Below, one piece after another: positions 1-21,285 of a stretch of 64,000 nucleotides of DNA. A model generated the notes under the pieces. That model was not told the DNA's origin. It ran no database searches and saw only the letters and a list, made by a program, of their open reading frames with translations. Made by a program: the position numbers and the translations under genes. The stretch's first letter is position 1. The number at the start of each line of letters is the position of its first letter. The DNA is from a phage, in NCBI GenBank assembly GCA_012646185.1, contig GCA_012646185.1_4706.1; one strand, given 5' to 3'.

Positions 1-1857
1 ACCACCGTAAGCTTCCAGAAGCTGGTTGACTGTTAGCTTATTAGTGTTGATTGAACCATTGACACCATCGATACCGATGCCTGCACCTGTGATGGATGTC
101 GCCGAAAGATCGATTGGTCCGGTTAACTTACCCCCGTTGATCGGTAACGCACCAACTTGCTCTGCGGTGTGTGTATGGTCAGCTAACGCCGCAAACGCCG
201 TGATAGACTTATATGTCGAATACGGCGTCATATACGCTGATTGGTTGGTGTTGTCAGCCGCTTCAGTATCGGTAGCGACATTAAAGTTCTGCACGTTGCT
301 GAGACCGACCTGCACCTTCGTTACTTCATGCGGGTTGTTCTTATTGACAACGTGTGCTGCAAAACCGTCACCGGCTAAAGCAGTGATTGCCGCTTTTGTC
401 GCAGCCGGTGTCATATAGCGGTTGGTTGCTTCACCCGTTTGCGCCTCTTCGTCGGAAGCAACAGGATAGTTCTCAACGCTCCCCAACCCAACCTGAGATT
501 TTGTTACTTGGTGTGGGTTTTCGGTATTCGCAATATGACTACTGAACCCTTGACCCGCCAGTTGCTCGATTGCGTAACGAACAAGTATTGGCGTCATGTA
601 CTTGTTGTTAACCTGACCATCGATAGCTTCTTGGGTGGTGGCAACCCCGAAGTTTTGCACGCTCCCCAACCCAACTTGCGCTTTCGTAACAGCGTGAGGG
701 TTATTGGTGTTACCGATGTGATCGGTAACCGTTGGGGTGATTAATCCTGCGATAGCGGCTGCCGTGGTCGCAGGGGTCATGTATTTATCGTTAGCAACAC
801 CCGCAGCAGCTTCTACGTTAGATGCTACACCGTAGTTCAATACATTTCCTAACCCAACTTGAGCCTTGGTTACCCCGTGGGGGTTGTTCCTGTCTCCGGT
901 ATGGGTTGTCAACGTAGCGTTGACATGATCGATACGCGTACTTAAGCCGTCGGTGATTGCTTTGATTGCGGCTCGTACACCCGCTGGTGTTGTGTACAGA
1001 TTGGTGGCCGTACCGGTAATGGTTGCATTACTATCGGCTGTACCGTAGTTCTCAACGTTTCCGAGTCCCACCTGGGCTTTCGTTACCTTGTGTGGGTTGT
1101 TATAGTTGCTGATGTGTGCAGCAGCACTATCACCACTCAGGTTAGCGATCATCTTACGCGTCATCGCCAACGTCATGTACAGATTTTCACCGATGGTTTC
1201 CAGATCGCTCTCGGTCGCCGTTGTGAAGTTCTGAACATTCCCCAAACCAACTTGTGCCTTGGTTACGCCATGTGGGTTATCGCGACGATTCTCGTGCTGC
1301 AGCAATGCGGTCATTGCTTTATTGAACCCTTCTTCAAGCGGTTCTTTCAATGATTCGATTGCAGCCACCACATCGTCCCACGTCATTGTGTCGGTTTCGA
1401 CATTATGTTGGTGGTTGATTGGCGGGAATACGGAAGGAACGTCAGCAACCTTTTCCCAGAACGTAACGCGGGGATCGTAAAGGTTGTTGGCTAAAACGTT
1501 AAGAATTTGTTGTTGATCAAGTGTAAACTCACCCCCCAGTGAATAGTAGTTCAGTTGCAACTGTCCACTGAATGCGGTGTCCAACAGCATGATGGAACCG
1601 TATAATTCCAGGCCGGTCAGCGCAGCCATGGCACGGAAGGGGTGAGTGCATAAAAAGTCAACGCCTTCTTCCAGATACGCGTTTGTTTCAGGGTTGTAGA
1701 TCTTTAACCCATTACGAAAATAGGGTGCGTATTTAGGAACGAGAAAGTTAAATCCGGTCCCCGTGGAAGGACGGACAGTGACGAGTTCTTCTGGAACCCA
1801 TGCGCCATCCAAATTCCCCTGCGGGTTATACGGAAGGCGTTTAATTTCATCTGTCAT
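1..1857 (-). CDS. tail fibre-like protein, partial (N-terminal ~619 aa; gene continues past window start)
   Basis: Hand translation of reverse strand from ATG at 1855-1857 gives MTDEIKRLPYNPQGNLDGAWVPEE...; frame checked open over several stretches toward position 1. Absent from ORF track because it runs off the edge. Six repeats of NNPHxVTKAQVGLGNVxN...YMTPA resemble the phage tail fibre repeat; HTHTAEQVG motif near the window edge. Confidence 0.75.
   Translation of the reverse strand, partial: MTDEIKRLPYNPQGNLDGAWVPEELVTVRPSTGTGFNFLVPKYAPYFRNGLKIYNPETNAYLEEGVDFLCTHPFRAMAALTGLELYGSIMLLDTAFSGQLQLNYYSLGGEFTLDQQQILNVLANNLYDPRVTFWEKVADVPSVFPPINHQHNVETDTMTWDDVVAAIESLKEPLEEGFNKAMTALLQHENRRDNPHGVTKAQVGLGNVQNFTTATESDLETIGENLYMTLAMTRKMIANLSGDSAAAHISNYNNPHKVTKAQVGLGNVENYGTADSNATITGTATNLYTTPAGVRAAIKAITDGLSTRIDHVNATLTTHTGDRNNPHGVTKAQVGLGNVLNYGVASNVEAAAGVANDKYMTPATTAAAIAGLITPTVTDHIGNTNNPHAVTKAQVGLGSVQNFGVATTQEAIDGQVNNKYMTPILVRYAIEQLAGQGFSSHIANTENPHQVTKSQVGLGSVENYPVASDEEAQTGEATNRYMTPAATKAAITALAGDGFAAHVVNKNNPHEVTKVQVGLSNVQNFNVATDTEAADNTNQSAYMTPYSTYKSITAFAALADHTHTAEQVGALPINGGKLTGPIDLSATSITGAGIGIDGVNGSINTNKLTVNQLLEAYGG
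286..1330 (-). repeat. six tandem in-frame repeats, period ~183 bp (213 bp for one unit), inside tail fibre gene
   Basis: Conserved cores start near 286, 469, 652, 835, 1048 and 1228 on the plus strand (gttctSMacg...ccMaacYtg...gttac...tgggtt). Confidence 0.8.
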
Positions 1858-1889
1858 GATGCGCCCTTTACAAGTTGTTAGTAAGTATG

Positions 1890-1907
1890 GGATACCCTGG
1901 GGTATCC
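1890..1907. promoter_or_regulatory. perfect inverted repeat GGATACCC-tg-GGGTATCC in divergent intergenic region
   Basis: Lies between the tail fibre start (1857) and the 1962 gene start; an ATATTAC motif sits about 30 nt upstream of the 1962 ATG. Regulatory role is inferred. Confidence 0.3.
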
Positions 1908-1961
1908 TGTGTTAACAGCGGTAAAATATTACTGTAACTATAAAATAAGGGGGCCTCTCCC

Positions 1962-3242
1962 ATGTATACATTGGTAAAAACTTACGGGTTACCCGTAGGT
2001 TCTGGCACGGCCTGGACAGCGCTTGAGGCGGGTGAAAGTGTCCTGAGTACGTTGTTCTCAACGTATCAAAAACTCAAGATCCAGGTCCATGAAAGCTATG
2101 CTGACCAGCAACAAGTTATTGATCTGTACGCGTTCCAATCCGAGCTTCAAAACAGTAGAGATACGCTTAATGCGTGGCTGAAGGCGAAATCGGATGCGCA
2201 TACCAACCTTCGAGGACAGCCTGGTGAACTGTCGATTAAAACCCACAAGCTTTATTGTCATGACGTTGTTACTGTAGGCTTTCTCCCTAAAGTCGGTAAT
2301 AGCGGTTATCATCCGAGCAACGCGATCCCTGAGTCGGAACGCACCGATATCCTGTTGACGAAAGCGAATACGAATTACGAAAATATCGGCAAACACTGCC
2401 TGTTCACCGTAGGTGGTTATGTTCATCCTCACGTCTACGGTAAAGACGTTGGTGTCTATATCCAGGGCGGGTTCAAGACGGCACAGCGTAGCCAAGAAAA
2501 CGATATCGGCATGATTGATTTTAGCCGTATCGGGAGTTTGGAAATCCATGCTATCACAGAAGAGATGATTGCTGATTCCACGAAGCTCTTGCCGTATAAG
2601 GACGAGATGTACTTGCGGTTACCGCGCAAGGTCGCCGAAGATGAAACCGTCGCGCTGGTGTTCGGGGGATATTTACATCTTCTTGACGATTGTTACACGA
2701 TCGTTAGTGACACGACAGCGAAAATAAACTGCATTAACATGTTTCTTTATGAAAGATACTTCCGTTCCCGCAAATACCTTGATCTAACATCTCTTGGTAT
2801 TCTGTTGAACGAAGAAGACCCACAGTCTGACATTGTTGCCAATCGTTTATTGTCGGATAAAGCATTAAAAGCGTGGGTGACGCATCCTTGCAGTTTCTGG
2901 GTGTATATCAAAGCAACATCGATTCAGGTTACGCAAGAACCCTTACCACGAAGTGGTGTACCAGGACAATATTTCTTAGGTAAGAAACCGGAAGGATTGA
3001 TTCGAGCTGATCTCGGCGAGTTACCGGCTTACGTGCAGACCTATGAAAAACCGTTATGGGTACTTCACTCGCGCTGGGGACTTCGTAAGAATATGTTGTT
3101 TGAAAATACGTTGTACAAACATACCCGCGTTAAGCGACTTAACGATACGCCTTATCTTCACCAGGTTTGGTTGGAAACGCATGCAACGTTGCAGACAGTA
3201 CACAAGCTCGAATTGATCGATTCCAGTCAGAAAAACAAATAA
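1962..3242 (+). CDS. hypothetical protein (426 aa)
   Basis: ATG start with GGGGG ribosome-binding site ~9 nt upstream; ends just before terminator hairpin. Confidence 0.85.
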   Translation: MYTLVKTYGLPVGSGTAWTALEAGESVLSTLFSTYQKLKIQVHESYADQQQVIDLYAFQSELQNSRDTLNAWLKAKSDAHTNLRGQPGELSIKTHKLYCHDVVTVGFLPKVGNSGYHPSNAIPESERTDILLTKANTNYENIGKHCLFTVGGYVHPHVYGKDVGVYIQGGFKTAQRSQENDIGMIDFSRIGSLEIHAITEEMIADSTKLLPYKDEMYLRLPRKVAEDETVALVFGGYLHLLDDCYTIVSDTTAKINCINMFLYERYFRSRKYLDLTSLGILLNEEDPQSDIVANRLLSDKALKAWVTHPCSFWVYIKATSIQVTQEPLPRSGVPGQYFLGKKPEGLIRADLGELPAYVQTYEKPLWVLHSRWGLRKNMLFENTLYKHTRVKRLNDTPYLHQVWLETHATLQTVHKLELIDSSQKNK

Positions 3243-3293: not shown

Positions 3294-4199
3294 TTATGCT
3301 ACATATAACGTTAGATAACCATCGATGAGCGTATTCATCACACTGAGTTGGAGTACGACAGCTTTACTAACATCCGTACGTACACCGAACGGTAGTGTTT
3401 TGAATTGCTCTGGATCGGCTATTACTCTCGCGTTCTGCAAGTTGAGTGGTCCAGGCATTGACGACAATACCCAGCGATCGTTGACCATAAGGCCGTCGAT
3501 CTCTTCAGAGAGACCCAATTGCAGTGTGTTCATTTCTGCGATTAGTGCCTCCGATTGCGTATCGCCTGAGGTTAATGTGTACCCATCGGTAAGTGATGCC
3601 AGAACACCAGCAGATACGAACCAGTTGTACGAAACAATAGCGCCTGGGAGTTTACTGCTATCTCGATCGATGATATAATTCAACCCAGCCAACATATTGT
3701 TGCGAACGAGGTTGTTGAGGTCGTTATGTCCTGAGGTTAACTCAACAAGTAACTGACCAACCCATACTTGGTTACCAGGTTTAGGTGTTATCACAACCTG
3801 TATCGGTGACTTGGACTTATCCAGATCCGCGTCGACAATCTCGGTTTTGTTGAGAAGGATACCGTACGTCGATGCTAAGACAGGTAGGATCTCAGAGACC
3901 TTGGTTAATGCATCTAAGGTTTCGATCTCGATGGGCCAGTGGTGCTGTCCGCCAGGCCAAGTACCCAGTTTACCAAGATCGATGCGGTTATAATAGATGT
4001 CGACAGAGTTCACCAGCCCTGAACCCGGTTGGGGATGCACGGTTAACTTGCTGTTACGCTTGTACCCTGTGCTTTCAGAAGCCTCACCGATAACCAGTTT
4101 ATCCAGCGTTACGCCTCGAGCATCGAAATCGCTATGCTTTCGAATCAGCCGAAAGAGGATTTCTTTCGATTCTAACCCCAGGATTTCACTGTACTCCAT
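3294..4199 (-). CDS. hypothetical protein, paralog family A (301 aa)
   Basis: ATG at 4197-4199; shares IYYNRID, STYGILL and DRWVL motifs with the 5116 and 5978 genes. Confidence 0.85.
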   Translation of the reverse strand: MEYSEILGLESKEILFRLIRKHSDFDARGVTLDKLVIGEASESTGYKRNSKLTVHPQPGSGLVNSVDIYYNRIDLGKLGTWPGGQHHWPIEIETLDALTKVSEILPVLASTYGILLNKTEIVDADLDKSKSPIQVVITPKPGNQVWVGQLLVELTSGHNDLNNLVRNNMLAGLNYIIDRDSSKLPGAIVSYNWFVSAGVLASLTDGYTLTSGDTQSEALIAEMNTLQLGLSEEIDGLMVNDRWVLSSMPGPLNLQNARVIADPEQFKTLPFGVRTDVSKAVVLQLSVMNTLIDGYLTLYVA

Positions 4200-4214
4200 T
4201 TAACACCCCTTAGG

Positions 4215-5099
4215 TTACGGTAGGATTTCTGCGCCCGTCGGGCCTGCCTTACGAGCTTCCAACGCACCAAGGTCGTATTTCAGCGTCAGCGTATCGTTGG
4301 TGGTATAAAGGTTGTGGTAAGTCGAAATCAGATCGGTAACCTGCGCGCCGACGATTTCGTTCATGTCGAAGGCTGAACCTTGACCATCATCAGCACGAAC
4401 GATTTTATCGCCAGCAGAGACCATCCCAATTTCAGAAATAACCGCGTACTCTTCACCACCTTCGGTGAGTTTAGCTACATTGAGATATTCGTTAATATCC
4501 CACGGCGTCCAAACCAAAGAGACTTTACAGCTGTAGTCGTAGTACTCTCCGGTTGCTACCAGAATTCCGGTTGTTGGGATATCCGGTCGGGCAGGGTTGA
4601 GGTTCGCGTCGGTTGGGTGCCATTCGATGGTCTGAGCGACGCCGTCGACGTATTTGGTATAACGCATGGAGCGGACAACGTTATCGAAATCGATCCGGCG
4701 ACCGTAATAACAGATATACTTTTTACCGCTTTCCAGTGTCTCAATACGACGTAACCCAAATTTAGCGCGTTCGTCTGTGGTCAAATCGTTACCAACTTCA
4801 CGCATTACGAAAGGCTTGATTTTCCACGGTGAAAGATCGCTTGCTTCGTGAGCGATCGGCATCGAGGAAGGGATACCGTTAGCGTTGCGGATGAATTCAT
4901 GACCTTGGTTGCCGATACAGAAGTAACGTACAGCAGGATTACCCTCGGGGTAAACCTTTGATTGAATCTGAAGTTTTTCATTCAAGGTGCTGTGTTCTTC
5001 CCATGCATGAGGAAGACCGAGCGTAAGGTTAGTTTGTACTTGACCGCCGATAATCGTACGGACGATACGATCGGTAGCACGGATTTGTGTAGAAGCCAT
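4215..5099 (-). CDS. hypothetical protein (294 aa), possible distant member of paralog family A
   Basis: ATG at 5097-5099; contains YYGRRIDFD resembling the family YYxRI motif. Confidence 0.8.
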   Translation of the reverse strand: MASTQIRATDRIVRTIIGGQVQTNLTLGLPHAWEEHSTLNEKLQIQSKVYPEGNPAVRYFCIGNQGHEFIRNANGIPSSMPIAHEASDLSPWKIKPFVMREVGNDLTTDERAKFGLRRIETLESGKKYICYYGRRIDFDNVVRSMRYTKYVDGVAQTIEWHPTDANLNPARPDIPTTGILVATGEYYDYSCKVSLVWTPWDINEYLNVAKLTEGGEEYAVISEIGMVSAGDKIVRADDGQGSAFDMNEIVGAQVTDLISTYHNLYTTNDTLTLKYDLGALEARKAGPTGAEILP

Positions 5100-5115
5100 G
5101 TCTTTTCCTATTTAA

Positions 5116-5967
5116 TCAGTTATATTGCATCAACAGGATACCGCCGTAGTTCGTGCAGTAATCTTGGCTAAGCGTAACGATAACAGCGTTAGCGAACGCA
5201 GGGTTAACCGGATAACCCTGTGCGATAAGTTCTGTTGTTTTACCGGTTGCAAGCACGGTGGCTCCGTAAAGGTTGTTTTCGTCTTCACGGCCGTTATAAA
5301 CCCATGGGGTTGGCGCAACGTTGTTGAATAAGCTAACCATTGCGCTTAAATTACCGCCAACTTTTAACCCGGCGAGATCGGAACGGATAGCCGTACAGTC
5401 TATAGCGTAACTGTAGACCAGTGCCTGGATACGATTTGCGGTGTAGTACGGGAAATTGAGGCCGGTCATCACCGTGGACTTCATCATCCCCGCAACATCG
5501 TGGGCACTATCGAGGAGATAGAACGTAACACTTCCCGTCCAAGCCAATCCGGTTGTTTTCAACTCTACGGTGTGAGGGAACGGATATTCATCACCTCGTA
5601 CAATCGGAGAATCGACGCAGCTATCCTGATCGATAACGATTCCGTACGTTGATTGAATCAGAGGGATAAGATCGTGCGTCGTTTTAACCCCAGCATCGAT
5701 AGCAAGCTTCGGTTCCATTCCCAAGAAGAAGTCTTGGATAGGGATACGATCGTACCACACGTAGCTGCTTTCACGGTATTGTGCTGGTGTTACTGTTGCC
5801 GAAGGTGATACCTTAGCGCGTGTGTTCCGTTTATACGCGTGGTTTCCGTTTTCAGCAACATCCGTGATATCAAGTGCATCGAAGTTAAAGTCGAAGTCAG
5901 GATTGGCTGCCTGAATAAGTTCAGCGACCAGTACTTTAGGACTTTTGTTTAACAATTTCTGACTCAT
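5116..5967 (-). CDS. hypothetical protein, paralog family A (283 aa)
   Basis: ATG at 5965-5967 with AAGGAA ribosome-binding site; motifs VWYDRIP, STYGIVID, LAWTGSV, DYCTNYGGILLMQYN. Confidence 0.85.
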   Translation of the reverse strand: MSQKLLNKSPKVLVAELIQAANPDFDFNFDALDITDVAENGNHAYKRNTRAKVSPSATVTPAQYRESSYVWYDRIPIQDFFLGMEPKLAIDAGVKTTHDLIPLIQSTYGIVIDQDSCVDSPIVRGDEYPFPHTVELKTTGLAWTGSVTFYLLDSAHDVAGMMKSTVMTGLNFPYYTANRIQALVYSYAIDCTAIRSDLAGLKVGGNLSAMVSLFNNVAPTPWVYNGREDENNLYGATVLATGKTTELIAQGYPVNPAFANAVIVTLSQDYCTNYGGILLMQYN

Positions 5968-5977
5968 TGTTTATTCC

Positions 5978-6913
5978 TTAGCCTTGTTCTTCTGGAGAAC
6001 GACCCTGGAGGCTTGCGGTATGTCCGTCGACGTTGTAATAGAAAATCAATGGACCGCCGACGGCAGTACAGTAGTTTTCATCCAGACCGATCTCGATACC
6101 GTATTGGTAACCTGCTCGTGCTGGAATACGTCCGCCTAACTCGCCGTTGAAAGCCACTTTAGCGTTATACAGGTTATACGGTGCGATGTTGTCGTCTAAC
6201 ACCCAACGATCGGCGGTCATTTCAGCCAGAAGATCGGCGACCACCACATCGCTAATGACCGTACCTGTTACCAGCGAAGCTAGCAACTCACCGTAATCAG
6301 AAGTATCACGACTGTAACTGTAGATCTCACCGCTAGCGCGTACGCCCTGTCCGAAGAACTTAAGACCATCAAGCTCTTTGATCGCGATAATATCATCAAG
6401 ATTCGGTACACGCGACTTCATCAAGATACGAACACTTCCCGTCCAAGCCAGGCAGTTAGATGCGACACGAAGCAATTGTCCGTTAACGGTATCCCAGTTA
6501 AGTTCGTCGTTGACGATTTCCTCCGCGGTAAGGCCAAGACCGAAACGTTCTTTGATGATAGGCCAGATATCACGCATCTTGGTGGCGTCTGGCGCATCGA
6601 TAAGAATAGGCGCTACGTTACGCAGATACGCACCGATATTGATACGATCGTAATACAGCGTCGTCGAACCTTCGTAATCGTCTAACTCAGTAAGCTTAGC
6701 GGTTGCTGTCGCCGTAATCTGGGTGTCGCGCTCATAGGCGCTTTGGTTGGTGGTTGGTGTTCCTAAAACCAATAATTCAGGGGTTAGGATATGCTCTCCG
6801 TTCTGAGGTGGGTTATCGTGGTTGATAAGACCATACACGAGATCGGATGAGGGTAAAGAGACGTCGACCGGGTAAAGTTCGGTGTCGTCAATAGTTGTTA
6901 CCGTATCACTCAC
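5978..6913 (-). CDS. hypothetical protein, paralog family A (311 aa), GTG start
   Basis: GTG at 6911-6913 preceded by GAGGAGG with 5-nt spacer; motifs LYYDRIN, LAWTGSV, ADRWVL, ENYCTAVGGPLIFYYN. Confidence 0.85.
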   Translation of the reverse strand: MSDTVTTIDDTELYPVDVSLPSSDLVYGLINHDNPPQNGEHILTPELLVLGTPTTNQSAYERDTQITATATAKLTELDDYEGSTTLYYDRINIGAYLRNVAPILIDAPDATKMRDIWPIIKERFGLGLTAEEIVNDELNWDTVNGQLLRVASNCLAWTGSVRILMKSRVPNLDDIIAIKELDGLKFFGQGVRASGEIYSYSRDTSDYGELLASLVTGTVISDVVVADLLAEMTADRWVLDDNIAPYNLYNAKVAFNGELGGRIPARAGYQYGIEIGLDENYCTAVGGPLIFYYNVDGHTASLQGRSPEEQG

Positions 6914-6972
6914 GGTGACCTCCTCGCCGGGAATTAGATAAAAAAGACTTTACGATTTGCTGCGCTATCACG

Positions 6973-9384
6973 TTAAACGTCCTCGATAGGCAAAGGTTTA
7001 ACAATCAAACGATTGAGCGGATTCGATAGACGCATACTGATAGGCTTATACGCAGCATGATTCGTCTCACTTAGAGCCACTGATCTGAAACGACCGTTCA
7101 ACTGTTTGTAAATCGGTTCTATCCAGAGACCTCGAAGATCACGTTTACGGAAACGTTGTTCGAACGGTTTGATTGGGGTTACGGTTAACCCACGCAACGA
7201 CTCTGACGGCAGACGCTCACGAAGGTCGCGTGGTGCCCGACCTGGGAACGGTGCAAGCCACAACCCGTCAAGCGGATTTTTACGGAAACGTAACGAGACA
7301 GGATCACTAATGACTTGTGCCCAATATTGCGTACTGAATCGAACGGTTTGGGTATTCTCGTAACCGCTACAGTCACACCAGGTTGGTTTCGGAGGTGCTT
7401 CCAAACTTTCAACCGCTGATTCACGCCAGTTCGTCATCGGGTTGTTATCATGTACGAATTTGATAACTTCCGTAGCCTGGTTATCCGTATCATGAACGTT
7501 TGCCTGTGCCCAGTCTTCCCACAGTTCTTCACTACCACTTACTAAACTCGAACCAAGACGAACGGCGATTTTGTTTAGTGGTTTGATTGGATCACTGTTG
7601 ATTGTCTGGATAAAATGGATGGTGTAACTGCTCAATGTCTTAAGCAGCTGCAGCATTCCGTATTGAATATCCTTAAGACTGGTGACATCTTCCAAATCTT
7701 GACCGGTGGCCTTTGTGAAGATATCGAGAGCCAGAATTCCCGCCTCTTCTTGACTGATTGCGTCAAGCTCCCAATCCATCGCTAAGAACCATTCCTTGTA
7801 AAGCTGCCCAATACCGAAGTCGACACCAACATCCATGTAAAAGTTTTCAACGATTGCTTCAGCCATACCTCGAGCTTGATAATGCTCTTGGAGCTGGTAC
7901 ATGAACTGATGACGACGCCAGCCCTGGTAGATCTCGGTAACGGCGGTCAGAAACTCTTCAGTACTGACGACCGGACGCAATGTTACTTGCTTATCCAAAC
8001 ACCACCAGATCAGTTTATCGGGAATGATAGCAGGATCGGTAATGCTACGGAGATGGTCGAATGTCGGTAGCGTTAACACCCTGACGTGGTTAGCATGGAT
8101 CTTAGGTACTTCAATCAGCGTCATGCCCATCGAATAGTTCAGCAAATACAAGAACAGCTTGTAGGCATCTTTCATCGACATCGTCATGGTATCACCCGTC
8201 ACCGGGTTGGTTGTCGTTAACCGTGACTGATACATGCCTATCGCGCTAAGATGAATCCATTCGTTCAGCAGGAAATCATACTTAGGATACAGTTCACTGT
8301 CTGTAAGGTCTTCGGCTTCACTTTCCAACACCTTGGTCGTTAAGGTATTGTTGTCGTGCATCGACATCTTCTCTATCGTGCGGTTAAGCTCGGTATAATA
8401 CTCCGCTTCGTTATCCCGCGCTAGAGGGAACTGTTGTTGCATCACGGTAGTGACCTTACGTCTTACCGTGCCATTACCGACGATCTCTTGAAGGTTAAGC
8501 GGTTTACGCTCCATGTAAACAGCAGGTTTTAACGTCTGGGGTATCTCGGAAGCGTCTTGTTTGATCGAGAACGCACCGATTGGAATCCCACGATCGGTTA
8601 ATACCTTTTGAATGAGCTTATCGTAGTTTTCCGTTCTGCCCATGTTTCTTTCAACGTAAGCGATGTTACGATAGAACCAGAGCATTTGGGATTCGGTCAT
8701 GTATCGCTTGAATCGATCAAGACCTTGATGACTTGCCAGATAACTCCAGATATGGAAGCTATGGGCATAATGGGTATGACAGTTTTCCCAACGAATACCT
8801 TTTATCATCTCAGGTATTTGTGTGAATAGGATGGCGTATAGCGCAGGCCAATGAAGCATATCGACGCTCTCGTATGCCGGATGTTCCCAGCGTCTGAAGT
8901 AATCGTCGATTTCTTGCTGTAAACGTGGAATAAGATTGGCCTCGCGCGACTCAACCTCTTGTGTATCGTACCAGAGAATCTCATGATTGCGTGCCGCAAT
9001 TGCTTTCTCGATATCGATGGGGTTAAGGATACCCAAGATCAACATACGTTGTTCCGGGTACCGCGCAATTAAACGATTGAAATAATCTCCACCATACGCG
9101 TATTCCCTTGCCGTCATGCGATGCCGTAACATGTTTTCCTTAGTGAACTCGATCTCTTCGAGCGTATCCAGGGAATTTACGGTCATCATTGTCTGACAAG
9201 GATGATACTCGCCAGCGAGATTCATGTAGTATAACCACGTGCGTGGGTCGTCCCCGACGGCCATCTGGTAGACTTCGGAAACCTTGAGGTTTAACCGTTC
9301 TGCCGTGATGTCGCTTTTAATAATCAGGGTGTCCGTTAGACGCTGCACGCTTTCCGAATAAAGCTGATAGTCAGTGTTGGACAC
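6973..9384 (-). CDS. hypothetical large protein (~803 aa), start moved to GTG at 9382-9384
   Basis: Track start is TTG at 9453; the in-frame GTG at 9384 has a GGAGGA ribosome-binding site 7 nt upstream and avoids overlap with the divergent 9412 gene. C-terminus carries three short RFRKxxLxGLWxxP repeats. Confidence 0.75.
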   Translation of the reverse strand: MSNTDYQLYSESVQRLTDTLIIKSDITAERLNLKVSEVYQMAVGDDPRTWLYYMNLAGEYHPCQTMMTVNSLDTLEEIEFTKENMLRHRMTAREYAYGGDYFNRLIARYPEQRMLILGILNPIDIEKAIAARNHEILWYDTQEVESREANLIPRLQQEIDDYFRRWEHPAYESVDMLHWPALYAILFTQIPEMIKGIRWENCHTHYAHSFHIWSYLASHQGLDRFKRYMTESQMLWFYRNIAYVERNMGRTENYDKLIQKVLTDRGIPIGAFSIKQDASEIPQTLKPAVYMERKPLNLQEIVGNGTVRRKVTTVMQQQFPLARDNEAEYYTELNRTIEKMSMHDNNTLTTKVLESEAEDLTDSELYPKYDFLLNEWIHLSAIGMYQSRLTTTNPVTGDTMTMSMKDAYKLFLYLLNYSMGMTLIEVPKIHANHVRVLTLPTFDHLRSITDPAIIPDKLIWWCLDKQVTLRPVVSTEEFLTAVTEIYQGWRRHQFMYQLQEHYQARGMAEAIVENFYMDVGVDFGIGQLYKEWFLAMDWELDAISQEEAGILALDIFTKATGQDLEDVTSLKDIQYGMLQLLKTLSSYTIHFIQTINSDPIKPLNKIAVRLGSSLVSGSEELWEDWAQANVHDTDNQATEVIKFVHDNNPMTNWRESAVESLEAPPKPTWCDCSGYENTQTVRFSTQYWAQVISDPVSLRFRKNPLDGLWLAPFPGRAPRDLRERLPSESLRGLTVTPIKPFEQRFRKRDLRGLWIEPIYKQLNGRFRSVALSETNHAAYKPISMRLSNPLNRLIVKPLPIEDV

Positions 9385-9411
9385 GATCGGTCCTCCAAGG
9401 AGCCAGTGTAA

Positions 9412-12321
9412 ATGAACGATATAAATAAAGGGCGCGTCGCCCTCGAACGTCAAATGAGCAATAATGACGTTGCGAAGGCACTCATGAACAAATTTGTCGC
9501 TCCTGCTCCGCAGTCACGTCTTTATAATACACGTGATGCGGAAGGAGCGAACGGTCGTTTCGGGTTAGTTGTTCCCGACCAAATGACGATGAACACGGTT
9601 ACGCGTGCGACCGCGACAAACATCGAGGATAATAAAAACATCCTCGAGTTGTTCCCTGAACTTAAACGCGTGATGCAGATCTATGTTGCCGCGTTGACGA
9701 ACCCTAACGATCTTAAGACGGTCGAGATGTTTATCGACAGCGAAGATTTCCCCGGCAGAGTCGCAGAAATCGTTCAGCCGATGATCGATACCATCGACAC
9801 GCATTTTAAGAATATCTATAAAATAAAGACGCTTATCCCTCGTATCATCGAAGACGTCTTCTTTATCAAGGGCAGTTATAACTTCGTTGTTCTGCCAGAA
9901 AGCACGCTCGACCGCGCGATTAATGGTAACGGTCAACTGAAACTTGAAGAATACGGATTTAAAGACAACCATTTTGCAAGTTGGGGGCTTCTAGGTAACG
10001 ACAGTCGCAAACGCCACGAAAATCAATTACCCGCGACGGTTTCGATGGAAGATTATTTCTCGGGTGTTAATGAAACCATACCGTACGATCCTGTTGTTCG
10101 CATAGACAGCATTAAGTTTACCAATACCCTGCTTCGCGATAAGGACGGTAAATTCATTGAAGCGAAGATCGATATTCCGGATATGGTTACGGTTGTCGAT
10201 AACCCAGACATCCTCCGCATGCCCATTCTGCATCAACGTCGAGCAGCGACAGCAGTGCAGCGTGCGTTACGCGCAAACACGTTAGGAGGTAGTGGTTTGG
10301 TAACGCTGTCAGGCGATCCGACCCTAACCGCTAACCGACGCGAGCTAACGCAAGAACAGGTTAACGAGATCTGGAATAAGCTCAACATCCAACGTCACAC
10401 TAAGGTATCTCCCGTTTACGCGTTGGCGACTCCAGATACGCTTGATCGTCAAAGCGTCGGTCATCCTGGTGTGATGCACGTACCACCTGAGGCATTAGAA
10501 CCCGTACATGCGCCCGGTGATCCTGAGAACCATATCGGGTATTTGGTTCAGTTGGATGAGTTTGGTTATCCGGTGCGTTTGGTTGAAGATGCTGCATATT
10601 ACAAGCAGTTGGAAGGTCGGTTGTCGAAGATCACTGCAGATATCGCAGGCACGTCAAGCAACGGCATGGCGAGCGAGATGATTGGTGCGGCCAAGAACAT
10701 GATCCAAGGTACGTCATGTAATCAGGTAGACATGTCGGCCTTCGTATCGTCGTACGAATCGCTGATGCAACGTTACATCGTTGAACGTATTGTCAACGGT
10801 TATCTTGGCAGTGCGGTGGAGATCGGTGCGACATCATCGTTTTACCTATCGATGCTTGCCCGTAGCCTCGCTCACAAGCAGACCCGTGTTTTGTTTATTC
10901 CTCGAGAGATGGTGACTTACATCGCCTATGAATACAACAAATACGGTATCGGTCGTTCGCTGCTTGAAAGTACGAAGATGATCTCGTCGCAACGAGCCAT
11001 GCTCATGGTTCAAGAACTAATGGCGAAAATCAAAAGTTCGTTGAACTATACGACGTTAAGCGTAATGCTTGAAGACACCGACAGAAACCCGGTCGATACC
11101 GTCGAACAAGCACTGCATAGTTTCGCTCGTGTCTACCAGTCTGGTTTCCCGTTGGGTGAAACTAACCCGATGGATATCATCAACGCGTACGAACGAAGCT
11201 CGATTCGATTGAAGGTTGAGGGGAATAACCCACGCTTCCCGAAATTGAATACAGACGTCAGCGTTGAGCAGCGTAACTATCAGTCTCCTGATAATGAGCT
11301 GATGGATCGTTACCGTCGTGACCATTTCATGGGCTTGGGTGTGTCTCCGGAGATTATCGATACTTCCTACCAATCTGAATTCGCAGCTTCTGTGATTACA
11401 GCTAACGCGATGCAAGAGAAACAGTTCACGGTTTGTCGTGAGGTGATCACGAATGGATTATCGGACCACATCAAGAAATATACGGCATACAGTCCCGTGT
11501 TGTTGACGTCGTTACGAAACACGGTTCGTGCGAACATGTCTAAGCTCTCCCAGGCACAATTGAAGCAGCTTTTTGGTAGCGATTTCGAAAACGGTGTTAT
11601 CCGTAACGTTAACGCCTATCAGGAGATTGACGACCAATCAGCAACAATGGATCTGGATTACACTAAACCAGAAGTCCAGGAAGTTATTGCCGATGCTTAT
11701 GTGTCCATGTTCTTAAACAGCCTGCGTGTGCGTTTACCAGATAGCAATGCTCGTCGCCTTGAAGATCAGGTACGTGAATATAATCAGTACAAGGAAGCGA
11801 TTACTGCGCAACTTGATGATTATTTAACGCCTGATTACGTCATGGGTCTGGGTGGGGTTGATGAAACAACGCTGCAGATGATCCGCGCATGCATTATTGG
11901 TACCGCGATGCGTACGTGGGCAAAAGAGAACAACTTCAATCAGGAGCTGGCTGATCTCTTCAGTCTTGACGATAAGAAGAATGCCGTGCAAGATTGGAAA
12001 CGTATGTCCATGGAACATATTGAAGTCATGGGTAAATGCATGGGTGATTTTGCATTGTATATTCAGAATCTGACGAAGAAGATTGAAGAGAAGATGGGAG
12101 CTCAAGCACAGGACGGCAGCGTTTCATCTGACGGTTCGTGGTCATCCGATTCAAGTAGCGATACCGGTTCTTCTGATGACTTCGGTGGCGGTGACGATTT
12201 CGGAGATACTGATTTCGATACCGAAACGATGGAGGAAACCTCAACAGAAGAAACAACCACATCTGAGGATACGACGACCGACACAACGTCAGAAGACGAT
12301 ACTTCAGGTGGCGTTGTCTAA
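9412..12321 (+). CDS. large virion-type protein (969 aa) with acidic S/T/D-rich C-terminal tail; possibly portal (weak guess)
   Basis: ATG with AAGGAG ribosome-binding site 9 nt upstream; C-terminal ~70 aa low-complexity acidic tail; A-run and terminator hairpin downstream. Confidence 0.8.
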   Translation: MNDINKGRVALERQMSNNDVAKALMNKFVAPAPQSRLYNTRDAEGANGRFGLVVPDQMTMNTVTRATATNIEDNKNILELFPELKRVMQIYVAALTNPNDLKTVEMFIDSEDFPGRVAEIVQPMIDTIDTHFKNIYKIKTLIPRIIEDVFFIKGSYNFVVLPESTLDRAINGNGQLKLEEYGFKDNHFASWGLLGNDSRKRHENQLPATVSMEDYFSGVNETIPYDPVVRIDSIKFTNTLLRDKDGKFIEAKIDIPDMVTVVDNPDILRMPILHQRRAATAVQRALRANTLGGSGLVTLSGDPTLTANRRELTQEQVNEIWNKLNIQRHTKVSPVYALATPDTLDRQSVGHPGVMHVPPEALEPVHAPGDPENHIGYLVQLDEFGYPVRLVEDAAYYKQLEGRLSKITADIAGTSSNGMASEMIGAAKNMIQGTSCNQVDMSAFVSSYESLMQRYIVERIVNGYLGSAVEIGATSSFYLSMLARSLAHKQTRVLFIPREMVTYIAYEYNKYGIGRSLLESTKMISSQRAMLMVQELMAKIKSSLNYTTLSVMLEDTDRNPVDTVEQALHSFARVYQSGFPLGETNPMDIINAYERSSIRLKVEGNNPRFPKLNTDVSVEQRNYQSPDNELMDRYRRDHFMGLGVSPEIIDTSYQSEFAASVITANAMQEKQFTVCREVITNGLSDHIKKYTAYSPVLLTSLRNTVRANMSKLSQAQLKQLFGSDFENGVIRNVNAYQEIDDQSATMDLDYTKPEVQEVIADAYVSMFLNSLRVRLPDSNARRLEDQVREYNQYKEAITAQLDDYLTPDYVMGLGGVDETTLQMIRACIIGTAMRTWAKENNFNQELADLFSLDDKKNAVQDWKRMSMEHIEVMGKCMGDFALYIQNLTKKIEEKMGAQAQDGSVSSDGSWSSDSSSDTGSSDDFGGGDDFGDTDFDTETMEETSTEETTTSEDTTTDTTSEDDTSGGVV

Positions 12322-18814: not shown

Positions 18815-18913
18815 CTGACTTATGTATCACGGTGCCGGATGAATGTCCGGTGCAATGAAACCATCCGCAACGTTGTCGTCAAGAATATCGTCCAACGAAG
18901 CAGCTACGGTAGT

Positions 18914-21136
18914 TCAGTTAGTCTGAACCGGCAGCTTGATGTTTTCAGTGTAGACCTTACGCAGGTTCACAACGTTAATCAGACCCAGCAGCGGGCAGTT
19001 GTTAACGAAGCGGCAGCGCGGCTGAACCATGGTTTCTTTAGAAACCTGACCGTTACGGGTAACCTGAGCAACAGATACCAGTTCCGGTACATACAGGAAC
19101 ATACCGAAGGTCAGCGGATCCGGAGAACCCTGGATACCACGAGACAGGGTCACGAAGATCTTATCGCGCAGCATGACGTTCGGGTTATCTACAACCACGA
19201 AGTTGAAGCTTACACCAACGGTACGGAAATCGCCATCGGTCTGCAGGAACTGCGGGATGTAGTTGTCAGTTGCTACTACGCAACGCGGTTTCTCATCAGC
19301 GTTGGAAGACAGCAGCTGCAGAGCTGGCTGATAACCAGACTCGGAGTACATGCGGTATGCCATCTCACGAATCACGTTCATGATCGCAGCAGACACTTCA
19401 GCACGACGTTCTGCAGTGGTGGTACCCTGAACAGATTTCTCCAGGTCCAGATTGATTTCTTCGAACCACGGACGGATCAGGTAACGACCGAAACCTTCGA
19501 TCTGGATGTCGCCGAACTGACGGAAGCGAGAGGTCGCAACCGCTTTCAGTGCGTCTTTGTAGCTGAACAGTTTCTCAACCATCAGGTTGTCGAAACGTGC
19601 GTTAGCAGCTTGGATCAGAACGTCCAGGTCAGCAGCGTTTTCTTCCCAATCCAGCGGACGAGGAATGGAGAACGGAGCCAGCAGGCCGATTGCGTAACGT
19701 TCTTGCTTCATGTTGAAGTCAAGGTGCTTACCGCGCTCACGACGGTTGCTGTTGTTACGGCGGATACGCAGTTCGTAACCAACCAGTTTGAAGCTCAGGT
19801 CTTCAGCCAGCTGTTTGAACTCTTCGCCCTTACGCGGTTGTTCGATGTTGTCACGATCGACCAGACGATACAGTTCAGCGTTAGCGCCGTTAACACGCAG
19901 ACCGGCTTTCTCTACGTTGGAAGAACCGTAAACTTCGATTGCCAGCTGAGCAGCGGATTTCGAATCGATGATGTCCTGCAGCGCTTCAGCTCGTGCACCT
20001 TTAACGTCAACGGTGTTCTCATCAACGAAGATGGAGTGGGTGTCGAACGCCAGGGTCATTTTGCGGAAGTCGCCTTCCAGGGATTTCTGGAAACCGTTGG
20101 TGATCAGACCAGATACGTCGAACGGTACGTAAGAGGTTTTGCTGTGCTTGGTAGATTTGATTTCCACCAGGATTTTGGTCAGCGTGATCTGGGCGTCCAG
20201 CGCGTCGGTGTTGTCGCTGTAACCGTTAGCCAGGATGCTATCGTCTTCAGCGATACCGATCATGTCGATCAGTTTATCAACAGCCAGGTAAGACGTTTTA
20301 TAAGTTACGCCTTTAATTTCGATGTCGCGCGGAGCAACGATAGCTTTGTCAACGAAGTACTGTGCGTTAGCATCGTCAGCACGATAGATCGGATGCAGAT
20401 CGGTCACGTCGTTGGACAGAACGTCGTTGTACATGAACGCATCCAGCAGCGGACGACGTACCCAATCAGCCGGAGTACCGTCAGCGTTACGACGCAGGTG
20501 GTTGAACACCAGCGGACGACGGAAAGATACGTCGTAACCGATCTGGTTCGGAGCCAGAACGATGGTGTTGTACAGTTCGTTACCCATGCGGCTCAGACGA
20601 GAAGCCTTCACGTTGAACACAACGGAGTACGGCATCATGTCACGCAGTTCTTTCTGGTCGTAGGACAGCTGAACCAGTTCTTCAGATTCGCAACCGCAGG
20701 AATCAGCAGCCATCATGACGAAGTTAGAGCTGTCAACTTCACGGCCAGACGGAGTGGTGCTGATGTTCATGGAACGTGCTTGTTTAGCATATTCCACCGG
20801 GTTACCATGAGCCAGCATGATCAGTGCTGCTGCACGAGCCTGCTGTGCGTTCATGGTGAACAGCTGTTCTTCAATACGCTGCTTCTCTTCCGGAGTGGTG
20901 GTTTCGAAGCCCAGCATGGACAGAACCGGTTCTTCGGCTTTACGGATGTCGCTGCTGAAGCTCTTAACATCCATTTCGTTAACCAGTTTGTCCATGGATT
21001 TGAAATCAACCTTAGAAGCAGATTCCATAGACAGGAAGGTGTTCTCCAGACCTTTGTCTGCTGGTTTGCTACCATTAGCGGTCAGGAACTGGCGAGTGGC
21101 CGCGACCTGTTGGCTAAGAAGGGTTTTATCATTCAT
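18914..21136 (-). CDS. putative major capsid protein (740 aa)
   Basis: ATG at 21134-21136 with AAAGGA ribosome-binding site; length close to the ~750-aa capsid proteins of phiKZ-like phages (recollection, not verified); strong host-like codon bias; own terminator. Confidence 0.55.
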   Translation of the reverse strand: MNDKTLLSQQVAATRQFLTANGSKPADKGLENTFLSMESASKVDFKSMDKLVNEMDVKSFSSDIRKAEEPVLSMLGFETTTPEEKQRIEEQLFTMNAQQARAAALIMLAHGNPVEYAKQARSMNISTTPSGREVDSSNFVMMAADSCGCESEELVQLSYDQKELRDMMPYSVVFNVKASRLSRMGNELYNTIVLAPNQIGYDVSFRRPLVFNHLRRNADGTPADWVRRPLLDAFMYNDVLSNDVTDLHPIYRADDANAQYFVDKAIVAPRDIEIKGVTYKTSYLAVDKLIDMIGIAEDDSILANGYSDNTDALDAQITLTKILVEIKSTKHSKTSYVPFDVSGLITNGFQKSLEGDFRKMTLAFDTHSIFVDENTVDVKGARAEALQDIIDSKSAAQLAIEVYGSSNVEKAGLRVNGANAELYRLVDRDNIEQPRKGEEFKQLAEDLSFKLVGYELRIRRNNSNRRERGKHLDFNMKQERYAIGLLAPFSIPRPLDWEENAADLDVLIQAANARFDNLMVEKLFSYKDALKAVATSRFRQFGDIQIEGFGRYLIRPWFEEINLDLEKSVQGTTTAERRAEVSAAIMNVIREMAYRMYSESGYQPALQLLSSNADEKPRCVVATDNYIPQFLQTDGDFRTVGVSFNFVVVDNPNVMLRDKIFVTLSRGIQGSPDPLTFGMFLYVPELVSVAQVTRNGQVSKETMVQPRCRFVNNCPLLGLINVVNLRKVYTENIKLPVQTN

Positions 21137-21285
21137 TGAAAGTATCCTTTACAGAATTAACTTATATAAGTCGGTCGATAGACCATAGCGTACACGCGTG
21201 CATGCGCCACTATAGTATCAGTAAACACTTACCGTTATTGAGGTCGTGATACAACACTAAAAATGCCGCATAACTTTTCCCTACG

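What the first reader, a model, noticed from the sequence alone, without database searches (positions are those of the whole stretch)
1..1857. Tail fibre gene with six 61-aa tandem repeats
The reverse-strand ORF was missed by the ORF track because it runs off the window edge. It encodes six copies of NNPHxVTKAQVGLGNVxN(F/Y)...(N/K)xYMTPAxxxxAI, similar in pattern to the phage tail fibre repeat, plus an HTHTAEQVG motif. Repeat-number variation here could change fibre length and host range.
Basis: partly seen in the sequence, partly recalled or inferred. Interest (0 to 1): 0.45.

Follow-up and report, generated by a model that had tools for sequence, protein, structure and literature searches.

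The report
Jumbo-phage tail fibre with six repeats
This is the first 619 residues of the known tail-fibre protein gp029 of a Goslar-like jumbo phage (the counterpart of phiKZ gp131): a baseplate anchor domain followed by six ancient ~61-residue shaft repeats, which makes it real and correctly spotted but ordinary.

Summary
Window 1-1857 (minus strand) is an uninterrupted 619-codon frame that starts at the ATG at 1857 and runs off the window edge. It contains six tandem units of 60, 71, 61, 61, 61 and 61 aa, each built on H-x5-NPH-x-VTK-x-QVGLGNV-x-N[YF]...YMTP...AI. A degenerate seventh half-unit, DHTHTAEQVGALP, follows.

The window is 97% identical to the E. coli jumbo phage Goslar. The ORF is the orthologue of Goslar gp029 (98.7% aa, 717 aa in full). 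A 2026 preprint found gp029 in purified virions at roughly 50-118 copies and labelled it a tail fibre.

It is also the syntenic homologue of phiKZ gp131, the anchor-and-shaft protein of phiKZ's twelve peripheral baseplate fibres. The gp130-like neighbour is conserved too.

Pfam's Phage_fiber_2 model does not match, and no Pfam or NCBIfam model does. The second half of each unit resembles the shaft repeat of the T4 short tail fibre gp12.

Copy number ranges from 3 to 12 among 120 homologues. However, the copies here share only 43-57% nucleotide identity, and three close relatives all have six, so rapid repeat-number change at this locus is unlikely.

Verdict: a known protein and an ordinary fibre gene. 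The one mildly interesting point is that this widespread repeat has no curated model and no solved structure.

The parts
1..1857 (-). 5' 1857 nt (619 of 717 codons) of the tail-fibre gene, the orthologue of Goslar gp029 and homologue of phiKZ gp131. The last 98 codons lie beyond the window edge.
   Evidence: Open frame. 97% nt and 98.7% aa identity to Goslar gp029. BLASTP E 2e-43 to phiKZ gp131. phrog_2163 at 2.5e-136 and phrog_13857 at 1.4e-121.
1468..1857 (-). N-terminal beta-rich domain (aa 1-130), gp131-N-like; the presumed baseplate anchor.
1300..1467 (-). Linker (aa 131-186) holding the W-x2-V-x3-P-x2-FPP-x2-HxH motif (aa 134-151, window 1405-1458) and a predicted 31-residue helix (aa 160-190, running into R1).
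   Evidence: A profile of 119 homologues hits PDB 9d93 'Tail collar fibers gp4' on this motif at E 1e-7. Helix H160-190 is in the AF2 model. The phiKZ fibre base shows a six-helix bundle next to the N-domains; equating it with this helix is inference.
1120..1299 (-). Repeat R1 (aa 187-246, 60 aa). A variant unit with YMTLAMT in place of YMTP.
   Evidence: R1-type units are conserved at position 1 in P0002, P0004, P0005 and P0006.
907..1119 (-). Repeat R2 (aa 247-317, 71 aa), with a 10-aa extension of the helix.
   Evidence: Helix H291-321 in the AF2 model. This unit holds 5 of the 8 aa differences from Goslar.
724..906 (-). Repeat R3 (aa 318-378, 61 aa).
   Evidence: It is the most divergent unit compared with relative P0002 (34% aa, 36% nt).
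541..723 (-). Repeat R4 (aa 379-439, 61 aa).
358..540 (-). Repeat R5 (aa 440-500, 61 aa).
175..357 (-). Repeat R6 (aa 501-561, 61 aa).
106..180 (-). Cap: a degenerate seventh half-unit, DHTHTAEQVGALPINGGKLTGPIDL (aa 560-584), with an HxH motif.
   Evidence: It aligns with the family's terminal 'NPHxxTAxQVGA' and with phiKZ gp131 'NPHVVTADQVNAY'.
1..105 (-). Start of the C-terminal region (aa 585-619), which continues off-window to aa 717. It is low-confidence and is not a beta-propeller.
   Evidence: AF2 pLDDT is below 50 over most of aa 569-682. No Pfam hit on full-length Goslar gp029.
1858..1961 (.). 104-bp divergent intergenic region holding the perfect palindrome GGATACCC-TG-GGGTATCC (1890-1907).
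   Evidence: No sigma-70-like site in it. About 99% conserved against a relative that is otherwise about 84% identical.
1962..3242 (+). Divergent neighbour gene: the Goslar gp030 orthologue and phiKZ gp130 homologue (426 aa), a peripheral-baseplate protein under which the fibres dock in phiKZ.
   Evidence: BLASTP E 2e-26 to the phiKZ gp130 orthologue. phrog_3337 at 4e-82. gp030 is detected in Goslar virions. Role of gp130 from PMC13250141.

Best explanation
The ORF encodes the proximal part of a baseplate tail fibre of a Goslar-type jumbo phage (Chimalliviridae).

The N-terminal beta-rich domain (aa 1-130), together with the HxH linker and long helix (aa 131-190), anchors the protein to the outer peripheral baseplate, next to the product of the divergent neighbour gene (the gp030/phiKZ gp130 homologue). 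phiKZ gp131 does the same.

The six ~61-aa units then form a modular shaft. Each unit is predicted to consist of a ~21-residue helix, an extended H-x5-NPH-x-VTK-x-QVGLGNV segment, and a short strand-helix-strand element. The latter part, with the motif [AS][ST]-x2-EA-x2-G-x5-YMTP, resembles the shaft repeat of the T4 short tail fibre gp12.

The shaft most likely assembles as a parallel trimer, so the number of units would set its length. The conserved histidines (position 2 and NPH in every unit, plus HxH motifs at both ends of the array) may bind metal ions on the fibre axis.

The short C-terminal part lies mostly off-window and has no recognisable receptor-binding domain. It probably joins the shaft to the products of downstream genes (gp028, gp027, gp026), which would carry host binding.

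What is shown: the sequence anatomy, the homology and synteny, and virion presence of the orthologue. What is inferred: trimerisation, the length-setting role, metal binding, and the link to gp026.
For: The frame is open and the six units are real.

The ORF is 98.7% identical to Goslar gp029. gp029 was found in purified virions with 34 peptides and 51% coverage, at an estimated 50/75/118 copies, and was labelled 'Tail fiber'.

It is homologous to phiKZ gp131 over aa 4-334 (31% identity, E 2e-43) and matches phrog_13857, the gp131 family. The divergent gp130-like neighbour is conserved.

In phiKZ, gp131-like N-domains and a six-helix bundle dock beneath gp130 and carry 12 fibres (PMC13250141). 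phiKZ gp131-135 tolerate no transposon insertions (PMC12676376).

The surrounding window genes are orthologues of the Goslar baseplate wedge and spoke proteins gp32 and gp35.

The AF2 model shows the same helix/loop/strand pattern in every unit. Its best PDB matches are T4 gp12 in 5iv5 (E 3e-6), KP1 baseplate chains, 5lye (gp12) and 5nxh (gp34). gp12 shaft repeats align in register with the units.

Homologues carry varied distal domains after the repeats: Peptidase_S74, Big_1/Invasin_D3 and Gp38 adhesin. phiKZ gp131 carries a beta-propeller, solved as 4gbf.

The profiles phrog_3573 and phrog_7449 match this ORF at their N-terminal end and gp026 over the rest.
Against: The fibres and peripheral baseplate were not resolved in the Goslar cryo-EM maps. 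The location and oligomeric state of gp029 are therefore not directly shown.

The AF2 model is a monomer with mean pLDDT 68, and confidence is low at the NPH loops.

Similarity to gp12 is weak (BLASTP E 0.005, TM-scores below 0.1).

The estimated abundance of gp026 (~13 copies) is about six times lower than that of gp029 (~75). This does not fit a simple 1:1 proximal-distal fibre.

No metal-binding evidence exists.
Confidence: 0.8

Rival explanations
1. gp029 is a structural strut or ring component of the very large peripheral baseplate, not a projecting, host-contacting fibre. On this view the repeats act as a spacer within the baseplate lattice.
For: Much peripheral-baseplate density in Goslar and phiKZ is unassigned. 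The estimated copy number (50-118) is high. The C-terminus has no recognisable receptor-binding domain. An older phiKZ annotation calls gp131-135 a 'paralogous baseplate protein family'.
Against: In phiKZ, the gp131 N-domains sit at the fibre attachment sites and the rest extends downward as the fibre. Homologues end in adhesin, Ig-like or S74-chaperone domains typical of fibres. The best structural matches are fibre shafts.
Confidence: 0.12
2. It is a neck/collar whisker-type fibre rather than a baseplate fibre.
For: The best PHROG hit (phrog_2163) is filed under 'head and packaging'. The only PDB sequence hit is called 'Tail collar fibers gp4'.
Against: The Goslar collar filaments were built as gp126 dimers. 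The gene sits among baseplate genes, and its phiKZ homologue was placed at the baseplate. The PHROG category is only a label for 'virion structural protein'.
Confidence: 0.03
3. It is a P2/lambda-type fibre built from the Pfam Phage_fiber_2 repeat.
For: An HxH-containing motif (HTHTAEQVGALP...GGKLTG) resembles motifs I recall from P2-like fibres. This is from memory and was not tested.
Against: Pfam does not list PF03406 or any other fibre repeat even at E<=10, for the fragment or for full-length Goslar gp029.
Confidence: 0.02

Closest known systems
Escherichia phage vB_EcoM_Goslar gp029 (YP_009820714.1, 717 aa)
   Same: Orthologue. 8 aa differences in 619 residues, the same start codon, six units, and the same neighbours.
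   Different: 3% nucleotide divergence. The aa changes cluster in R2 (5), R3 (1) and R6 (2). The window lacks the last 98 codons.
Pseudomonas phage phiKZ gp131 (771 aa), the basal and distal component of the 12 peripheral fibres
   Same: Homologous N-terminal domain, HxH linker and NPH units (31% identity over aa 4-334, E 2e-43). The divergent gp130-like neighbour is the same. It belongs to the same PHROG, 13857.
   Different: phiKZ gp131 has only two full units plus the cap, then a seven-bladed beta-propeller (4gbf, residues 374-771). The Goslar-type protein has six units and a short, non-propeller C-terminus. phiKZ has four N-domain paralogues downstream (gp132-135). At this locus Goslar shows only one, gp025.
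T4 gp12 short tail fibre (5iv5, 5lye)
   Same: It is the best solved-structure match of the AF2 model (Foldseek E 3e-6). The gp12 shaft motif G-h-h-x-h-[AS]T-x2-EA-x2-G-x5-[AIM]TP aligns in register with the second half of each unit.
   Different: gp12 units are about 40 aa and lack the helix and the H-x5-NPH-x-VTK-x-QVGLG half. The N-terminal anchor differs. The gp12 metal-binding head domain is absent. Sequence similarity is marginal (E 0.005).
'YomR'-named jumbo-phage proteins (e.g. Erwinia phage PhiEaH1 YomR), Felixounavirus tail fibres, and Goslar paralogue gp025
   Same: They carry the same NPH unit in tandem (37% identity over 88% of the query for PhiEaH1 YomR). They are annotated as tail fibre or virion structural proteins.
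   Different: Unit numbers and distal domains differ. gp025 ends in a Peptidase_S74 intramolecular chaperone domain. The Felix-O1-like proteins share only the repeats, not the N-domain.

Membership tests
phiKZ gp131-like fibre proteins (phrog_13857 / gp131-N domain) | Homologous N-terminal (gp131-N) domain | tested here: met
   BLASTP gives 31% identity and E 2e-43 from aa 4 onward. phrog_13857 scores 1.4e-121, and phiKZ gp131 itself covers that profile end to end.
phiKZ gp131-like fibre proteins (phrog_13857 / gp131-N domain) | Gene lies divergently next to a gp130 homologue within the baseplate gene cluster | tested here: met
   Window 1962-3242 (+) matches the phiKZ gp130 orthologue at E 2e-26. 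The layout is the same in KEN51/phiKZ. The Goslar gp32 and gp35 wedge/spoke orthologues lie nearby.
phiKZ gp131-like fibre proteins (phrog_13857 / gp131-N domain) | C-terminal seven-bladed beta-propeller (4gbf) | tested here: not met
   The alignment to gp131 ends at aa 334. Full-length Goslar gp029 has only about 150 residues after the repeats, with no Pfam hit and low-confidence, partly helical structure.
phiKZ gp131-like fibre proteins (phrog_13857 / gp131-N domain) | Incorporated in the virion at the fibre attachment sites of the outer peripheral baseplate | not testable with these tools
   Virion presence of the 98.7%-identical orthologue is reported by mass spectrometry. Its position was not resolved in Goslar.
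Pfam Phage_fiber_2 (PF03406) tail fibre repeat | Match to the Pfam HMM | tested here: not met
   hmmscan at E<=10 lists only three chance matches and no fibre family. Full-length gp029 has no matches at E<=0.01.
T4 gp12-type short tail fibre | Shaft built of [AS]T-x2-EA-x2-G-x5-h-TP repeats | tested here: inconclusive
   The motif is present in register in units R2-R6. BLASTP E is 0.005 and the Foldseek top hit is 5iv5 gp12 at E 3e-6, but TM-scores are below 0.1 because the model is a monomer.
T4 gp12-type short tail fibre | gp12 C-terminal receptor-binding head domain | tested here: not met
   Nothing aligns to the C-terminal half of gp12.
Peptidase_S74 (intramolecular chaperone) fibres and spikes | C-terminal S74 auto-cleaving chaperone domain | tested here: not met
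   Absent from gp029. Present in paralogue gp025 (PF13884, E 1.1e-5) and in some homologues.

The most novel reading that the evidence does not exclude
The 61-aa 'H-x5-NPH-x-VTK-x-QVGLGNV-x-NY...EA-x2-G...YMTP' unit is a distinct and very widespread fibre-shaft module. It has more than 4,000 database hits and about 600 phage records, from jumbo phages to Felix-O1-like and SPbeta-like phages. It has no Pfam or NCBIfam model and no solved structure.

Its two near-invariant histidines per unit, plus the flanking HxH motifs, could form a regular ladder of metal sites along a trimeric axis. That would make it a metal-stapled shaft that is extensible in fixed increments. Such a model could explain the fibre density left unresolved in the Goslar and phiKZ maps.
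Probability: 0.25. Interest if true: 0.4.

Novelty: already known. Interest (0 to 1): 0.2.

Why it matters
The finding correctly flags a gene that the ORF track missed, and it places that gene. It is the Goslar-type counterpart of phiKZ gp131, in the part of the chimallivirus virion (peripheral baseplate and fibres) that two 2026 cryo-EM studies could not model.

The practical value is modest. The unit boundaries, the anchor/shaft/cap layout and the link to gp026-like distal bodies give a concrete template for fitting the unresolved fibre density. They could also guide fibre engineering.

The repeat deserves a curated family model. Nothing here changes the understanding of phage biology.

Tried and rejected
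- Tandem Repeats Finder on the DNA found nothing relevant, because the copies are too diverged.
- Pfam and NCBIfam scans gave no family.
- A PDB sequence search with the single protein returned only chance matches to ribosomal protein L18e.
- The profile search of the PDB returned one short-motif hit, 9d93. A literature search for 9D93 found nothing useful.
- A PDB search with phiKZ gp131 showed that only its C-terminal propeller (4gbf) is deposited with sequence. The N-domain and repeats therefore could not be compared with an experimental structure.
- The sigma-70 promoter scan found nothing in the intergenic region. This is unsurprising, because these phages carry their own RNA polymerases (vRNAP subunits are listed; the promoter inference is from background knowledge).
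- I first read the 19-36% divergence of the repeats against relative P0002 as a swapped cassette. The locus-wide comparison showed the background is about 84% identity, and the anomaly is instead a ~99% conserved island over the promoter and N-domain.
- The Felix O1 genome paper was checked for a description of this repeat and has none.
- The second structure-prediction job and the representative-protein search were not used. A monomer model cannot settle the trimer question.
Full report
**1. Observation**

Reading the minus strand from 1857 gives an ATG followed by 619 sense codons that run to base 1 of the window without a stop. The ORF listing does not report ORFs that run off an end of the window, which explains why an ORF track missed it.

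NPH tripeptides occur at aa 194, 254, 325, 386, 447 and 508. Starting each unit at the conserved His seven residues upstream gives six tandem units:

| Unit | Residues (aa) | Length (aa) | Window coordinates |
|---|---|---|---|
| R1 | 187-246 | 60 | 1120-1299 |
| R2 | 247-317 | 71 | 907-1119 |
| R3 | 318-378 | 61 | 724-906 |
| R4 | 379-439 | 61 | 541-723 |
| R5 | 440-500 | 61 | 358-540 |
| R6 | 501-561 | 61 | 175-357 |

The unit consensus is .H..n.nNPH.VTKaQVGLgnV.N..vA...ea..g...n.YmTpa.t..aI.

- R1 is a variant, with YMTLAMT in place of YMTP. R2 has a 10-residue insertion.
- Units share 39-57% aa identity and 43-57% nt identity. The longest exact nucleotide match between units is 17 nt, and Tandem Repeats Finder detects nothing. 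These are old, diverged protein repeats, not a DNA tandem array.
- The motif DHTHTAEQVGALP (aa 560-572) follows R6. It aligns with the family's terminal half-unit 'NPHxxTAxQVGA'.

**2. Identity**

- The first 4 kb of the window is 97% identical to Escherichia phage vB_EcoM_Goslar, a 237-kb jumbo phage of the genus Goslarvirus.
- The ORF corresponds to Goslar gp029 (YP_009820714.1, 717 aa, 'virion structural protein, weakly similar to YomR'). The start codon is the same, and there are 8 aa differences in 619 residues. 98 codons lie beyond the window.
- Pfam gives no credible hit, and in particular no Phage_fiber_2. NCBIfam gives none.
- PHROGs matches strongly: phrog_2163 'virion structural protein' at 2.5e-136 and phrog_13857 'tail protein' at 1.4e-121. 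Many tail-fibre PHROGs match through the repeats.

**3. Published evidence on the orthologue**

The Goslar cryo-EM and mass-spectrometry preprint is bioRxiv 10.64898/2026.04.21.720040.

- Estimates for the rest of the cluster (low/median/high): gp025 at 58/87/136, gp030 at 12/18/28, gp028 at 9.5/14/22, gp027 at 9/14/22 and gp026 at 8.5/13/20.
- The fibres and peripheral ring were not resolved. gp32 and gp35, whose orthologues lie a few kb into the window, form the wedge and spokes.

**4. Link to phiKZ**

- tblastn finds the protein in PhiKZ-like phages. The hit in phage KEN51 is a 771-aa 'tail protein'.
- The KEN51 stretch holding that gene and its divergent upstream neighbour (the query) is 99.9% identical to phiKZ, where it is annotated PHIKZ131 and PHIKZ130.
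- The window ORF aligns to gp131 over aa 4-334 (31% identity, E 2e-43). This covers the N-domain, the linker and the first units.
- The divergent upstream gene (window 1962-3242, 426 aa) aligns to the gp130 orthologue (27% identity, E 2e-26).

The phiKZ structural atlas (PMC13250141) reports twelve peripheral fibres. Their attachment sites lie beneath gp130. [quoted passage not shown] phiKZ gp131-135 carry no transposon insertions in a genome-wide screen (PMC12676376).

phiKZ gp131 has only two full NPH units plus the cap (aa 184-374). The crystallised propeller, 4gbf, begins at residue 374. No deposited PDB sequence covers the N-domain or the repeats.

**5. Structure**

An AlphaFold2 monomer model was built for the 98%-identical full-length protein P0001 with 119 homologues. 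Mean pLDDT is 68.

- aa 1-125 form a confident beta-rich domain.
- A helix spans aa 160-190.
- Each unit then shows the same pattern: a helix of about 21 residues, an extended low-confidence NPH-VTK-QVGLGNV segment, and a short strand-helix-strand element.
- Residues 569-717 are mostly of low confidence.

Foldseek against the PDB ranks a 526-residue chain of the T4 baseplate entry 5iv5 first (E 3e-6). From its length I take this to be gp12 (527 aa). Next come two baseplate chains of Klebsiella phage KP1 (9f4b), then the gp12 crystal structure 5lye, then T4 gp34 (5nxh). TM-scores are low, as expected when a monomer model is compared with chains from trimers.

The gp12 shaft repeats (for example YGLTRYSTNDEAIAGVNNESSITPAKF) align in register with the second half of the units (NYGVASNVEAAAGVANDKYMTPATT), at a marginal pairwise E of 0.005.

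A profile of the family hits PDB 9d93 'Tail collar fibers gp4' on the W-x2-V-x3-P-x2-FPP-x2-HxH motif (E 1e-7).

**6. The family and copy number**

- The word-indexed protein search returned 4,022 proteins at E<=1e-5 among the 8,000 candidates scored. Many sit on 200-300 kb contigs.
- 599 phage records match, including Felixounavirus tail fibres, SPbeta-like Bacillus phages and phiEa21-4-like phages.
- Among the 120 best homologues, unit number ranges from 3 to 12 with a mode of 7. The 934 units have a modal spacing of 61 aa. His at position 2 is 95% conserved and NPH is 98% conserved.
- Close relatives (Goslar, P0001, P0002) all have six units. Relatives at 55-62% identity have 5 (P0004), 6 (P0006) or 7 (P0005) units, with patterns that indicate block duplications. 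P0004 alternates two unit types, and P0006 has a second R1-type unit.
- Distal domains differ among homologues: Big_1/Invasin_D3, Peptidase_S74, Gp38 adhesin, and the propeller in phiKZ.

Unit number and tip domains are therefore evolutionarily plastic, as is typical of fibres. Nothing suggests rapid variation at this locus.

**7. Context off-window**

In Goslar the genes downstream of gp029 are gp028, gp027, gp026 (867 aa) and gp025 (682 aa), followed by an endolysin.

- gp025 has five NPH units, a distantly related N-domain (E 4e-8) and a Peptidase_S74 chaperone domain.
- The profiles phrog_3573 (1001 positions) and phrog_7449 (1714 positions) match the window ORF at their N-terminal ends and gp026 over the rest. 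gp028 matches the C-terminal end of phrog_3573.
- This suggests that in other phages the anchor, the repeats and a gp026-like body are one polypeptide, and that Goslar splits them. The link is inferred, and the roughly 6:1 abundance ratio of gp029 to gp026 does not fit a simple 1:1 fibre.

**8. Mechanism and confidence**

The best explanation (confidence about 0.8) has four elements:

- **Anchor:** the N-domain and helix attach the protein under gp030.
- **Shaft:** the six units form a modular, probably trimeric shaft, whose unit number would set its length.
- **Cap:** the degenerate half-unit closes the array.
- **Distal end:** the short C-terminus connects to distal partners.

The regular histidines suggest axial metal sites, by analogy with the metal sites I recall in T4 gp37 and gp12 (background knowledge). 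This is speculation.

The rivals are a non-projecting baseplate strut (0.12), a collar fibre (0.03) and a Phage_fiber_2-type fibre (0.02).

**9. Novelty**

The gene is a near-identical orthologue of an annotated virion protein that has been detected by mass spectrometry and is already called a tail fibre. It is also a homologue of the studied phiKZ gp131. It is therefore already known.

I could not find three things in the papers read: an explicit description of the six-unit architecture, its gp12-like half, or a curated model or structure of the unit. These gaps are of modest interest.

Noticed in passing
window 1890-1907 (intergenic region 1858-1961): A perfect 8+8 palindrome, GGATACCC-TG-GGGTATCC, lies between the divergent fibre gene and the gp130-like gene. 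It occurs once in the 64-kb window, and no sigma-70-like promoter is nearby. It could be a regulatory site or an RNA hairpin for the divergent late genes.
   Followed up: partly
window ~1380-1990; L004 1319-1768: An island of ~99% nucleotide identity covers the intergenic region and the first ~120-160 codons of the fibre gene, in a comparison of Goslar with a relative that is otherwise ~84% identical across the locus. Between the window phage and that relative, synonymous changes affect 7 of 130 codons in the N-domain against ~25 of 60 per repeat. This suggests a recent recombination patch or nucleotide-level constraint. A similar island marks the 5' end of paralogue gp025 (L004 7169-7318).
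   Followed up: partly
L001 8030-10633 (Goslar gp026) and 11136-11645 (gp028), off-window downstream: The profiles phrog_3573 and phrog_7449 join a gp029-like N-terminal part to a gp026-like body. This implies that the Goslar fibre is split into several polypeptides that are fused in other phages. gp028 resembles the C-terminal ~85 residues of the same profile.
   Followed up: partly
L001 5968-8016 (Goslar gp025), off-window: A second fibre paralogue has five NPH units and a Peptidase_S74 chaperone domain. In virions its abundance is similar to that of gp029 (~87 against ~75 copies). This is compatible with a mixed gp029/gp025 basal complex like the phiKZ hetero-hexamer, but it was not tested.
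   Followed up: no
window 3294-9453 (minus-strand ORFs): A run of minus-strand ORFs is orthologous to Goslar gp031-gp035. These include the DUF7941 'fibre cloud' proteins gp31, gp33 and gp34, and the wedge/spoke proteins gp32 and gp35 described in the 2026 preprint. The window opens inside the baseplate and host-recognition gene block.
   Followed up: partly
window 18839-21139 (+) and 18914-21136 (-): Two long ORFs (766 aa and 740 aa) overlap almost completely on opposite strands. At most one is likely to be a real gene.
   Followed up: no
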